This document shows positions 1 through 61,877 of a DNA stretch of 64,000 bases, in pieces (position 1 is the first letter of the stretch; each line of letters begins with the position of its first letter). A program made the position numbers and the translations under genes. Location: positions 39,146 through 103,145 of the IMG/VR virus record IMGVR_UViG_3300028840_004913; one strand, given 5' to 3'. The notes beneath the pieces are model-generated. The model was not told the origin of the DNA. It did not search any database and saw nothing but the letters and a program-made list of their open reading frames with translations. This stretch comes from a virus.

Positions 1-95
1 TTTACCCGCCCTTGGCACTCGGGAGTCCTCTGTAAACCGCAACGGCTGCAACCAATTACGACTCCAGCAGGAAGCGACCTATGCCCTCTATGGTT
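1..95 (-). ncRNA. 5' half of a putative kissing-loop ncRNA (homologue of 59252-59413), cut by the window edge
   Basis: Shared blocks AACCWTAGAGGGCAY, GGTTGCAG and CGAGTGYCAAGRGCGGGKAAA; stems GGCAT/GTGCC and GGAGTC/GACTCC. Confidence 0.6.
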
Positions 96-106
96 AATGT
101 TTAAAT

Positions 107-234
107 TGGTAGCCTGGCAAGGAGTTGAACCTTGCACGCCTATCCTGGAGCGACCAGGGTCTTTGCACGCGACTACTAACATACTGAGCCAGCCGACAAC
201 CGGTATGGACTGACTGTTCTGCTTTGTCCAGGCC
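107..234 (-). ncRNA. tRNA-like ncRNA (acceptor stem, T arm and CCA; no canonical D or anticodon arm)
   Basis: GGCCTGG/CCAGGCT-A-CCA acceptor; CAAGG-TTCAACT-CCTTG T arm; about 93 nt of non-canonical interior. Confidence 0.65.
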
Positions 235-244
235 ATAAAGTATT

Positions 245-329
245 TGGTAGCGCGGGTTGGAGTTGAACCAACACAGGCCTAAGCCCACAGATTTACAGTC
301 TGCTACCCTCGCCTATGGGTTGCCACGCT
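245..329 (-). tRNA. tRNA-Tyr(GUA)
   Basis: GCAGA-CTGTAAA-TCTGT anticodon arm, variable arm, T arm, encoded CCA. Confidence 0.9.
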
Positions 330-58328: not shown

Positions 58329-58404
58329 TGGGGTGACCCTGAGATTTGAACTCTTTCACGATATTCACAGTATCGCTGGCTTGCGCCACAGCCACGAGGC
58401 CACC
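58329..58404 (-). tRNA. tRNA-His(GUG), short T stem
   Basis: G-1:C73; CGATA-CTGTGAA-TATCG; CCA. Confidence 0.8.
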
Positions 58405-58676: not shown

Positions 58677-58759
58677 TGGCAGAGGGTGGATGAATCGAAC
58701 ACCTACGTTTAACCGCACCACGGGGTTCAAGCCCGATTTGTCCCTTGACGGCACCCTCC
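58677..58759 (-). tRNA. tRNA-Ser(UGA)
   Basis: CGGG-CTTGAAC-CCCG; variable arm; G73; atypical D arm. Confidence 0.82.
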
Positions 58760-59004: not shown

Positions 59005-59009
59005 AATTG

Positions 59010-59080
59010 TGGAGCCCGATGTAGGAATCAAACCCACCTTCCATGGGTACAAACCATGTTAGATCTCAGACCAATCGGGC
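59010..59080 (-). tRNA. tRNA-Thr(UGU), reduced D arm
   Basis: GCCCGAT/ATCGGGC; CATGG-TTTGTAC-CCATG; 71 nt. Confidence 0.82.
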
Positions 59081-59251: not shown

Positions 59252-59413
59252 TGGTGCGAGCAGGTGGCCGGTTTCGCTGGCTATCATAAGGATTTGCAGA
59301 TCCTTCAAGCCTCCACGGTTTCCCCGCTCTTGACACTCGATTGATCTTATCACCTTCTGGATGGACTGCAACCCGATCCAGGGTGACTCGATCGCCCTGT
59401 GCCCTCTAAGGTT
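59252..59413 (-). ncRNA. Putative kissing-loop ncRNA ending in CCA, inside the tRNA array
   Basis: Two long arms with complementary apical loops TTGCAG and CTGCAA; 5' arm conserved at 1-95. Confidence 0.65.
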
Positions 59414-59434: not shown

Positions 59435-59510
59435 TGGTGGCCGATCCTGGGCTTGAACCAGGGACCGCTCGATTATCGGTCGAGTGCTCTCCCAACTGAG
59501 CTAATCGGCC
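59435..59510 (-). tRNA. tRNA-Ile(GAU), C33
   Basis: CTCGA-CCGATAA-TCGAG. Confidence 0.92.
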
Positions 59511-59664: not shown

Positions 59665-59889
59665 TCATTCATCCTCAAAAGGCCAGGCCGTTCCGGATAT
59701 CTGCGTAGGGATTATGGCCTGCTTCCTTCCTGCGTACTCTTCCTCCTCTTCCATTTTGGCCGGTCGCCATGGCTGATTTGAGAATATCGCCTTGCATTTA
59801 AAGCACCTATACCATTGTCCGTCAAGATGATCCCATGGATAAGGGTGCTTGCATTTAGGGATCTTGCCCCCTTTTATCTCCCTAAGCAT
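59665..59889 (-). CDS. Small Zn-ribbon-like hypothetical protein
   Basis: Homologue of 328-546. Confidence 0.7.
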   Translation of the reverse strand: MLREIKGGKIPKCKHPYPWDHLDGQWYRCFKCKAIFSNQPWRPAKMEEEEEYAGRKQAIIPTQISGTAWPFEDE

Positions 59890-60604: not shown

Positions 60605-61774
60605 TTATCCTTTAACGACCAGTATCGGCCGAAAATTATCAATAATTCTAATCAGTTTAGACGAACCGCTCAATACATATCCTATGTCCTTATATGCATA
60701 GGCCGATTCATCGAGCAGCTTCTCGACTGGCTGAGAAACCATTATACCATCCATTGACTTTGAATGGTCTGCCATGTCGATTGTTTTTTTGGCCCTGGTG
60801 CGCGACATGGTACGGCCGCATCCGTGAGGCGCTGACTCGAGACACTCTTTATTGCCAAGCCCCTCTGTGATCCAAACACCATCCCGCATATTCGCTGGTA
60901 TGATGCCTATATCCCCCTTTGAAGCCGGCGTAGCGCCTTTACGATGGATAACCCCATCATCGGTAACCGTCGCATGGTTATGGTTCTCATTCACCATATC
61001 CATCATTAGCCTGCGGACCTGGCCAGACTGGAGCCCTAAGGCCTTGAGGGCTTTCTTCATCATGAGCTCTCGGTTGCGAAGGGCAAAGCTGAGAGCCCAA
61101 TTCATATCTGCCAGGTATTGCTGGCCGAGCTCAGACTCAAGAGGTATCGGCCCACCGGACATACGCATATAGAAGTCACCGATATTATATCCAGACTTCC
61201 GTGATCCTGAATGAATGGTAACGCCAACCTCTTCTGTGCGCTGGCTGATACCGTACTCGAGGAAATGATTGCCACCACCGAGAGTACCGACCTGCCAGGC
61301 TGCCTTCATATTGACCGCATCGGCTAAGGCTTTGTATTTACTGGCATTCCTAAACCGCTCGAATCCATTGGATTTAGTCTTTCTTGAGTCGAAACCCACC
61401 GGAATCATTGATAATACTCTCTTCTTGATATCCGTCCTGGTGGTCCCGAGCTCGCCATAGGTTATGCCAGTATTCACATGGCACATACCGCATCCAATGT
61501 CATAACCCACAGCCCCTGGCCAAATATAACCGTCCAATAATGCTACAGATCCTATCGGTAGATCATAGCCGGCATGCACGTCTCGCATGATAGCCAGGCG
61601 CTTAACAATGTACCGATCTGCAGCATATCTGCCTGGATCCTGCCGTGGATACATAAGGGCATTCACGATCTGATCCTTCGCAGGGTCCTCTATATCTTCC
61701 CATGGCAGCGTTAATTCCAGGCGGCCACCTGCAAAGTCGATAGCATCTTCCGTGGTAATCAGTTCAATAGCCAC
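60605..61774 (-). CDS. rtcB: RNA 2',3'-cyclic-phosphate/5'-OH ligase RtcB
   Basis: DVHAG..PIG, VGYDIGCGM, GTLGGGNHFLE, HSGSR, HNH, HRKGA, SAPHGCGR, DES..AYK; GTG start at 61774 after GGGGGAGG. Confidence 0.97.
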   Translation of the reverse strand: MAIELITTEDAIDFAGGRLELTLPWEDIEDPAKDQIVNALMYPRQDPGRYAADRYIVKRLAIMRDVHAGYDLPIGSVALLDGYIWPGAVGYDIGCGMCHVNTGITYGELGTTRTDIKKRVLSMIPVGFDSRKTKSNGFERFRNASKYKALADAVNMKAAWQVGTLGGGNHFLEYGISQRTEEVGVTIHSGSRKSGYNIGDFYMRMSGGPIPLESELGQQYLADMNWALSFALRNRELMMKKALKALGLQSGQVRRLMMDMVNENHNHATVTDDGVIHRKGATPASKGDIGIIPANMRDGVWITEGLGNKECLESAPHGCGRTMSRTRAKKTIDMADHSKSMDGIMVSQPVEKLLDESAYAYKDIGYVLSGSSKLIRIIDNFRPILVVKG

Positions 61775-61798
61775 GCCTCCCCCTCTCGTTAAATGATT

Positions 61799-61877
61799 GG
61801 GTAGCCAGGTCTGGATCCCTGACCGCCCCAGGCTGCCCCCGTCCCTGTGCGACACGGGGTACAACCTTGTCCAGATG
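61799..61877 (-). ncRNA. Putative structured ncRNA element A (copy 2)
   Basis: TCTGGA/TCCAGA, AGGTTGT/GCAGCCT, CCCCGT/ACGGGG, GGGCGGTCAGG/CCTGGCTACCC. Confidence 0.65.

What the first reader, a model, noticed from the sequence alone, without database searches (positions are those of the whole stretch)
107..234. 128-nt tRNA mimic: acceptor stem, T arm and CCA, with a pseudoknot replacing the D and anticodon arms
Seen: 7-bp acceptor GGCCUGG/CCAGGCU, discriminator A, encoded CCA and a canonical T arm (CAAGG-UUCAACU-CCUUG). The interior can form AGUCAGUC/GGCUGGCU, whose loop CAUAC pairs with downstream GUAUG (H-type pseudoknot), plus hairpins GUC/GAC and CCUGG/CCAGG. It has no G3-U70 pair and no tag ORF, so it is not a standard tmRNA. 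It is absent from the copy 2 array. Inference: a decoy or mimic for synthetases, EF-Tu, RNase P or tRNA-targeting defence nucleases, or a tRNA with an unusual intron that RtcB could ligate.
Basis: partly seen in the sequence, partly recalled or inferred. Interest (0 to 1): 0.7.

Follow-up and report, generated by a model that had tools for sequence, protein, structure and literature searches.

The report
Anticodon-less tRNA-shaped phage RNA gene
A 128-base gene in a phage tRNA cluster keeps only the top half of a tRNA (acceptor stem, T arm, CCA end) around a middle that shows no sign of structure, so it cannot read codons; it is most likely a reshuffled tRNA remnant that is still cut out like a tRNA, a kind of RNA known from phage T4 for 50 years.

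Summary
The tRNA frame is real. On the minus strand, 234->107 has a 7-bp acceptor stem, a consensus T arm, discriminator A and an encoded CCA, 10 nt after tRNA-Tyr. This pattern is expected 0.01 times per random genome.

The interior claims do not hold. The 93-nt interior folds no better than shuffles (z +0.13). The proposed pseudoknot has 0-nt and 2-nt connecting loops across an 8-bp stem, which is sterically implausible. No homologue exists to test covariation.

It is not a tRNA, tmRNA or YrlA by ARAGORN or Rfam. None of 2225 single excisions restores a credible tRNA.

The record is two related phages joined head to tail (about 75% nt identity). The element occurs only in phage A and rtcB only in phage B, which argues against RtcB-dependent splicing.

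The element sits where phage B has tRNA-Ile, directly upstream of a conserved ~190-nt RNA. Its ends resemble the neighbouring tRNA-Tyr, and its interior weakly resembles tRNA-Ile (p about 0.05).

Best reading: a tRNA-derived, non-decoding unit left by array reshuffling, which would still be processed through its minihelix. A trans-acting decoy role remains possible but has no support.

The closest known thing is T4 species 1 RNA (rnaC). This scan has noted similar tRNA-framed RNAs in other phages.

The parts
107..234 (-). The 128-nt tRNA-framed element (index i = 235 - window position)
   Evidence: Sequence read. Unique in the record. Not called by ARAGORN at default settings or by Rfam.
228..234 (-). 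Acceptor stem, 5' strand (index 1-7)
   Evidence: Pairs with 111-117 over 7 bp, one of them G-U.
111..117 (-). Acceptor stem, 3' strand (index 118-124)
   Evidence: The 26 nt at 106-131 are 81% identical to the 3' end of the adjacent tRNA-Tyr (repeat D1).
107..110 (-). Discriminator A and encoded CCA
   Evidence: All 14 minihelix hits in the record carry an encoded CCA, and so do the array's other tRNA-type genes as printed.
118..134 (-). T arm: 5-bp stem and 7-nt loop matching the T-loop consensus
   Evidence: A 15-nt stretch is identical to the T arm of phage A's tRNA-Gln.
187..215 (-). Interior hairpin 1 (8 bp, two of them G-U, 13-nt loop). Its 3' strand overlaps a D-arm-like GCUCAGU motif at 183-189.
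   Evidence: Appears in the MFE fold, but the interior is no more stable than shuffles. MAFFT aligns the 5' half of tRNA-Ile to this region.
144..158 (-). Interior hairpin 2 (5 bp, 5-nt loop). It resembles the T arm of tRNA-Ile with a shortened loop.
   Evidence: Local alignment to tRNA-Ile of phages A and B. ARAGORN at -ps80 reads it as a poor 'anticodon arm'.
132..139 (-). 8-nt direct repeat, copy 1 (copy 2 lies at 163-170, 31 nt away)
   Evidence: repeat D2. Compatible with an internal duplication, but weak evidence on its own.
245..329 (-). tRNA-Tyr(GUA), 10 nt upstream on the same strand
1..93 (-). 5' part of a ~190-nt conserved RNA that starts about 15-25 nt after the element's CCA and runs past the window start (the whole RNA is roughly L001:1318-1490, minus strand)
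   Evidence: Alignment with its phage B copy. In phage B it follows tRNA-Ile directly.
59435..59510 (-). Phage B tRNA-Ile(GAU), which holds the position taken by the element in phage A (directly upstream of the ~190-nt RNA at about 59252-59413)

Best explanation
The element is a tRNA-derived gene that can no longer decode. It keeps an intact acceptor/T-arm minihelix with ACCA, wrapped around about 93 nt that show no detectable tRNA core and no excess structure.

It most likely arose when the tRNA array of phage A was reshuffled. The Tyr, Ile and ~190-nt RNA genes are in a different order in sister phage B. The element occupies the slot that tRNA-Ile holds in phage B.

How it would work (inferred). 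It is co-transcribed with tRNA-Tyr and the downstream ~190-nt RNA. Bacterial RNase P, 3'-end trimming enzymes, the CCA-adding enzyme and the T-loop modifying enzymes all accept acceptor/T-arm minihelices, so the unit is excised like a tRNA. This excision separates tRNA-Tyr from the downstream RNA and helps define that RNA's 5' side. The released 128-nt RNA has no anticodon arm and no minihelix-level identity mark such as G3-U70. It is therefore probably neither charged nor used in translation.

Shown here: the frame, its context, the lack of a cloverleaf, and the lack of homologues. Inferred: transcription, processing, and the punctuation role.
For: - The frame is far beyond chance and sits in register inside the array.
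- There is no tRNA, tmRNA or YrlA match.
- The interior is no more stable than shuffles.
- The record is two phages at about 75% nt identity, with TerL 86% identical. The element is in A only, and the arrays differ in gene order exactly around Tyr, Ile and the 190-nt RNA.
- The 3' trailer after the element's CCA aligns with the trailer after phage B's tRNA-Ile.
- The 3' 26 nt are 81% identical to the adjacent tRNA-Tyr.
- The tRNA-Ile genes of A and B are the two best whole-tRNA matches to the interior (13.5 and 11.5, next best 7.5; 5 of 100 shuffles reach this).
- After two segments are removed post hoc, 52 of 58 aligned positions match phage A's tRNA-Ile.
- Phage A also has an intact tRNA-Ile downstream, so a second copy would be free to decay.
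Against: - The tRNA ancestry of the interior is only marginal. With a spliced-alignment score, Tyr and Gln score almost as well as Ile, and 5 of 60 interior-shuffled controls reach the real score. Plain local alignment is at chance level.
- A neutral remnant would be expected to lose its minihelix too. The perfect 12-bp minihelix, consensus T loop and ACCA suggest either a recent origin or selection, and selection could equally be for a trans-acting role.
- No expression or processing data exist.
Confidence: 0.5

Rival explanations
1. It is a functional, trans-acting tRNA look-alike of the T4 species 1 RNA kind. The stable CCA-ended RNA would use its tRNA top half to occupy a host factor, for example an acceptor-end or T-arm-recognising defence nuclease or toxin, RNase P, or the CCA-adding enzyme. 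The interior would supply specificity.
For: The minihelix, T-loop consensus and ACCA are intact although the rest is unrecognisable. T4 rnaC has the same frame, an acceptor-like stem plus a T arm around a non-tRNA interior in a tRNA cluster, and is a real stable RNA of unknown role (PMC3014915, PMC9697503). A second singleton with the same frame lies upstream of TerL in a relative (L012:1259-1394). These phages invest in RNA biology: large tRNA arrays, rtcB in phage B, and several conserved non-coding RNAs.
Against: It is a singleton. It is absent from sister phage B, from about 1.7 Mb of TerL-related viral and metagenomic loci, and from GenBank phages. The interior has z = +0.13, against -4.6 for T4 rnaC. 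The acceptor carries no anticodon-independent identity mark such as G3-U70, so an EF-Tu or synthetase decoy is unlikely. The record encodes no Ro60/TROVE partner.
Confidence: 0.25
2. It is a precursor tRNA with an intron or insertion that is removed, with the exons joined by RtcB, to give a decoding tRNA.
For: rtcB is present in the record. ARAGORN with a forced intron and a 70% threshold gives a weak 'tRNA-Ala' call.
Against: Of 2225 single excisions of 25-74 nt, only one gave an ARAGORN call, and it uses a different acceptor and is spurious. Nothing is called at the default threshold in intron mode. rtcB is only in phage B and the element only in phage A. At about 50 nt the extra sequence is too short for a group I intron, and Rfam finds no intron family.
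Confidence: 0.04
3. It is an assembly artefact: a chimeric junction made when two co-occurring strains were assembled into one contig.
For: The record is itself a head-to-tail join of two related genomes. tRNA arrays are rich in short repeats.
Against: Apart from the 15-nt T-arm match, the element shares no stretch longer than 13 nt with any other part of either genome. It therefore cannot be stitched together from sequences present in the contig. The A/B join lies about 20 kb away, near record position 59,887.
Confidence: 0.04

Closest known systems
Phage T4 species 1 RNA (rnaC, 139 nt), with species 2 RNA (rnaD), in the T4 tRNA cluster
   Same: Both are an RNA gene inside a phage tRNA cluster, on the same strand as the tRNAs. 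Both are closed by an acceptor-like stem that abuts a consensus T arm, with a roughly 100-nt non-tRNA interior. Both are similar in length and are followed or preceded by a second non-tRNA RNA gene. Neither has an Rfam family; both give only a weak tRNA-Sec-like partial hit. The function of the T4 RNAs is still unknown (PMC3014915, PMC9697503).
   Different: There is no sequence or covariance-model similarity: model R1 finds nothing in the T4 locus. T4 rnaC is strongly structured (z -4.6) whereas this element is not (z -0.4). The T4 stem has two U-U mismatches and no encoded CCA. T4 rnaC has been shown to be a stable RNA; this element has no expression data.
tRNA-like domain of tmRNA (RF00023)
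   Same: An acceptor stem and a T arm frame a long non-tRNA insert, and the RNA ends in CCA.
   Different: The element has no G3-U70, no tag reading frame and no supported pseudoknots. It is only 128 nt long. Neither ARAGORN nor Rfam gives a tmRNA call.
YrlA / bacterial and phage Y RNAs (RF02553)
   Same: Both are non-decoding RNAs with a tRNA-like module, and YrlA genes are often found near rtcB.
   Different: In YrlA the tRNA-like module is internal and the RNA ends form the Ro60-binding helix. Here the RNA ends form the acceptor stem. There is no RF02553 match on the element, no TROVE/Ro60 gene in the record, and rtcB is in the other phage.
Degenerate tRNA genes (pseudo-tRNAs) in phage tRNA arrays
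   Same: The element is tRNA-derived, lies in an array that also holds several aberrant tRNA genes missed by the standard callers, and is not conserved between close relatives.
   Different: The decay is not uniform. The minihelix, T loop and CCA are perfect, while the D and anticodon regions are unrecognisable and about 50 nt longer than in a tRNA.

Membership tests
tRNA (RF00005) | Cloverleaf with a D arm and a 7-nt anticodon loop on a 5-bp stem | tested here: not met
   ARAGORN at default settings gives no call. Rfam gives no tRNA hit at E <= 10 even when only 150 nt are searched. ARAGORN at -ps80 forces a poor 'Ala(cgc)' call on index 50-128 with a mismatched acceptor.
tRNA (RF00005) | 7-bp acceptor stem stacked on a T arm with the UUCRANY loop, plus discriminator and CCA | tested here: met
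   Chance expectation is 0.01 per genome.
tmRNA (RF00023) | G3-U70 alanine identity pair, tag-peptide reading frame, pseudoknots | tested here: not met
   Position 3:70 is C-G. ARAGORN -m finds nothing even at 70% threshold. Rfam gives no hit.
YrlA / Y RNA (RF02553) | Match to the covariance model, and a Ro60 (TROVE) partner gene | tested here: not met
   No RF02553 hit on the element. PF05731 is absent from the record, while the control genomes are positive.
Intron-containing tRNA | Removal of one contiguous segment restores a cloverleaf that uses the element's own acceptor | tested here: not met
   2225 excisions gave one spurious call. ARAGORN -i and -io at default settings find nothing.
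T4 species 1 RNA (rnaC) kind | Non-tRNA RNA gene inside a phage tRNA cluster, closed by an acceptor-like stem next to a T arm | tested here: met
   The T4 locus L087:1409-1547 (minus strand) was read and folded. The element was read and folded.
T4 species 1 RNA (rnaC) kind | Homology in sequence or structure to T4 rnaC | tested here: not met
   Model R1 gives no hit in L087. No curated rnaC family exists in Rfam to test against.
T4 species 1 RNA (rnaC) kind | Accumulates as a discrete stable RNA processed by RNase P | not testable with these tools
H-type pseudoknot | Connecting loops long enough to cross the grooves of the two stems, and support from covariation | tested here: not met
   The loops are 0 nt and 2 nt against an 8-bp stem 1 (sequence; geometry from established pseudoknot rules). 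No homologues exist for covariation.

The most novel reading that the evidence does not exclude
The element is a deliberately retained tRNA top-half decoy. It would be a stable, uncharged, CCA-ended RNA that phage A makes alongside its tRNAs to soak up a host factor that recognises the acceptor/T-arm half of tRNA, such as an acceptor-end-cleaving or CCA-modifying toxin of a defence system. It would be functionally akin to the still unexplained T4 species 1 RNA. Phage B would cover the same need differently, with rtcB and a larger tRNA set.
Probability: 0.15. Interest if true: 0.65.

Novelty: new member of a known kind. Interest (0 to 1): 0.3.

Why it matters
Phage tRNA clusters are now seen as counter-defence tools, and tRNA-framed RNAs that cannot decode have been unexplained since T4 species 1 RNA. 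A clear case with conserved interior structure would offer a handle on that old question. This case does not provide it. It is a singleton with an unstructured interior, and it is best read as a by-product of array reshuffling that keeps only the processing-competent half of a tRNA. Its value is as one more data point on two matters: that the acceptor/T-arm minihelix is the part of a tRNA gene that survives in phage arrays, and that two near-sister phages can differ in such units.

Tried and rejected
- Rfam at gathering thresholds on the whole window, and in E-value mode on 1.5 kb and on 150 nt: no family. The best hits were mascRNA (14.5 bits) and tRNA-Sec (11.7 bits), both non-significant.
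- ARAGORN in tRNA, tmRNA, intron and mitochondrial modes.
- Homologue searches. blastn against GenBank phages found only tRNA-Tyr hits in Erwinia phages. An exact 25-mer and a gapped acceptor/T-arm pattern in IMG/VR gave 0 hits and 2 chance hits. blastn, nhmmer and the single-sequence covariance model R1 found nothing over 80 viral and 80 metagenomic TerL-related loci.
- TerL relatives top out at 59% identity, so no close relative was reachable.
A 103,413-nt contig holding the same TerL cluster could therefore not be fetched.
- I tried to reach relatives through the conserved core of the neighbouring ~190-nt RNA. A 25-mer gave 0 hits, and a 19-mer gave 5 viral and 6 genomic hits, all unrelated hairpins.
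- The tmRNA idea for the look-alike in L012 was rejected: the Rfam hit is the T arm only.
- Derivation of the interior from a specific tRNA is suggestive for Ile but not robust.
- The sigma-70 promoter and terminator scan around the array gave nothing above shuffles.

Full report
**What is there.** The feature lies on the minus strand, 234->107. It starts 10 nt after the CCA of tRNA-Tyr(GUA) (245-329).
- It opens with a 7-nt strand that pairs with 111-117 (one G-U at 1:72 and six Watson-Crick pairs).
- Next to that stem is a T arm: a 5-bp stem with a 7-nt loop that fits the T-loop consensus.
- It ends in discriminator A and an encoded CCA.
- ViennaRNA forms this minihelix in both the MFE and the centroid structure.
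- I scanned the whole 103-kb record, both strands, for T arm + 7-bp acceptor + CCA. There were 14 hits, all inside the two tRNA arrays, and the element is one of them. Markov-shuffled genomes give 0.01 hits.

The tRNA frame is therefore real and the gene is tRNA-derived.

**What is not there.**
- ARAGORN at default settings and Rfam 15 do not call a tRNA, tmRNA, YrlA or any other family. This holds for gathering thresholds, for E-value mode on 1.5 kb, and for E-value mode on 150 nt.
- At a lowered threshold ARAGORN forces a poor 'tRNA-Ala(cgc)' onto index 50-128 with a mismatched acceptor.
- Position 3:70 is C-G, not G-U.
- The 93-nt interior is no more stable than dinucleotide shuffles (z +0.13; 109 of 200 shuffles fold as well). 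The whole RNA has z -0.38.
- The proposed H-type pseudoknot has no linker between the first stem and CAUAC. Only 2 nt connect the stem's 3' strand to GUAUG, and they would have to cross an 8-bp stem. Established pseudoknot geometry makes this implausible, and nothing supports it.

**Intron reading.** I removed every contiguous segment of 25-74 nt (2225 variants) and ran ARAGORN on each. Only one gave a call, and it used a different acceptor and an abnormal anticodon loop. Intron modes find nothing at default thresholds.

**Genomic context.**
- The window is bases 39146-103145 of a 103,145-nt IMG/VR record.
- Self-BLAST shows that the record is two related phage genomes joined head to tail. Record positions 1-42262 match 59887-103120 at about 67-90% identity, mostly around 75%. 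The two TerL proteins are 86% identical. I call the first genome phage A and the second phage B.
- Phage A's array reads Tyr, the element, a ~190-nt conserved RNA, a small ORF, Ile, Thr, Gln, Pro.
- Phage B's array reads rtcB, Met, Trp, Ile, the ~190-nt RNA, Tyr, Asp, Thr, Asn, Glu, Gln, a Ser-like gene, Ser, Leu, Pro, His.
- The element is unique to A and rtcB is unique to B. This argues against phage RtcB acting on the element.
- The record has no Ro60/TROVE gene and no CCA-adding enzyme gene.

**Homologues.**
- GenBank phages gave nothing.
- Exact and gapped pattern scans of IMG/VR gave nothing real.
- About 1.7 Mb of loci around TerL relatives from IMG/VR and JGI metagenomes gave nothing by blastn, nhmmer or a single-sequence covariance model.
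- The nearest TerL outside the A/B pair is only 59% identical.
- The interior structure therefore cannot be tested by covariation.
- My structural scan did find one comparable singleton. L012:1259-1394 is a 136-nt RNA with a 7-bp acceptor, a T arm, GCCA and a non-tRNA interior, just upstream of TerL in a phage whose TerL is 52% identical. It has no similarity to the element and no homologues either. Its Rfam 'tmRNA' hit is the T arm alone.

**Origin.**
- The last 26 nt are 81% identical to the 3' end of the adjacent tRNA-Tyr. Five of the seven acceptor pairs are the same as in tRNA-Tyr.
- The element occupies the slot that tRNA-Ile holds in phage B, directly upstream of the 190-nt RNA. The trailers after the two CCA ends align.
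- When whole tRNAs are aligned end to end against the interior, the tRNA-Ile genes of A and B are the two best matches (13.5 and 11.5, next best 7.5). Five of 100 shuffles reach this score.
- A D-arm-like motif and a hairpin resembling the T arm of tRNA-Ile with a truncated loop lie in the right order.
- After two segments are removed post hoc, 52 of 58 aligned positions match phage A's tRNA-Ile.
- This support is only marginal. A spliced-alignment score ranks Tyr and Gln almost as high as Ile, and 5 of 60 controls reach the real score. Plain local alignment is at chance level.
- I therefore treat 'a mosaic of tRNA pieces produced by array reshuffling' as likely but not proven.

**Mechanism.** It is established that bacterial RNase P, the CCA-adding enzyme and the T-loop modifying enzymes accept acceptor/T-arm minihelices. 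This is background knowledge and was not tested here. From it I infer that the unit is excised from the array transcript like a tRNA. That excision would separate tRNA-Tyr from the downstream 190-nt RNA, the job that tRNA-Ile's frame does in phage B. With no anticodon arm and no minihelix-level identity mark, the RNA is unlikely to be charged. That makes an EF-Tu or synthetase decoy unlikely. A decoy for factors that read the acceptor end or the T arm remains possible.

**Closest known.** The closest known thing is T4 species 1 RNA (rnaC).
- I read and folded the T4 locus.
- rnaC is 139 nt and lies in the tRNA cluster next to rnaD.
- It is closed by an acceptor-like 7-bp stem with two U-U mismatches, next to a consensus T arm, and it has a non-tRNA interior.
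- Reviews and a 2022 transcriptome study still call its role unknown (PMC3014915, PMC9697503).
- It has no Rfam family and no similarity to the element.
- It is strongly structured (z -4.6), unlike the element.

Notes from this scan report other tRNA-framed, non-decoding RNAs in other phages. I took these as leads only.

**Verdict.** The best reading is a tRNA-derived, non-decoding, minihelix-processed remnant of array reshuffling (0.5). The rivals are a functional tRNA top-half mimic (0.25), an intron-bearing tRNA (0.04) and an assembly artefact (0.04). Interest is modest.

Noticed in passing
whole record G000 (window = G000:39146-103145): The 103-kb IMG/VR record is two related phage genomes of about 60 kb joined head to tail. 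Record positions 1-42262 match 59887-103120 at about 75% nt identity, and there are two TerL and two portal-sized genes. This is probably an assembly join of two co-occurring strains. A TerL cluster member sits on another contig of 103,413 nt, so the join may be reproducible.
   Followed up: partly
window 1-93 (-) continuing to L001:1318-1490 (-); second copy at window 59252-59413 (-): A ~190-nt non-coding RNA is conserved between the two phages, with a 30-nt core identical in both. It is closed by a terminal stem and ends GCA(C/U)CA. In both phages it follows a tRNA-type 3' end. It has no Rfam family and no homologue in IMG/VR or GTDB genomes by core-motif scans.
   Followed up: partly
window 59009-59080 (-), 58677-58759 (-), 58330-58404 (-): Three further tRNA-type genes in phage B's array are missed by ARAGORN and Rfam. 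Read by eye they are Thr(UGU), a Ser(UGA)-like gene with a weak D arm, and His(GUG) with G-1 and a weak T stem.
   Followed up: no
window 60605-61864 (-): An rtcB (tRNA-splicing ligase, phrog_1075, E 3e-88) lies directly upstream of phage B's tRNA array. The homologous site in phage A lacks it: an indel of about 1.2 kb.
   Followed up: yes
L012:1259-1394 (+): A second singleton tRNA-framed RNA: 136 nt, 7-bp acceptor, T arm, GCCA, non-tRNA interior. It lies 55 nt upstream of TerL in a phage whose TerL is 52% identical. It has no homologues.
   Followed up: partly
L007:3241-3341 (+): A 101-nt tRNA-Tyr(GUA)-like gene appears to carry an 11-nt tandem duplication between the D arm and the anticodon stem. 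ARAGORN does not call it.
   Followed up: no
L048:3993-4124, L057:3444-3578, L085:728-864 (+): Three 129-137-nt tRNA-like genes in more distant relatives (TerL about 44% identical) have normal class II D arms but long extra segments in the anticodon/variable region and no encoded CCA. They may carry insertions or extended arms.
   Followed up: no
L087:1409-1672 (-) (phage T4): T4 rnaC and rnaD have no Rfam 15 family. rnaC gives only a weak tRNA-Sec-like partial hit (17.5 bits).
   Followed up: yes
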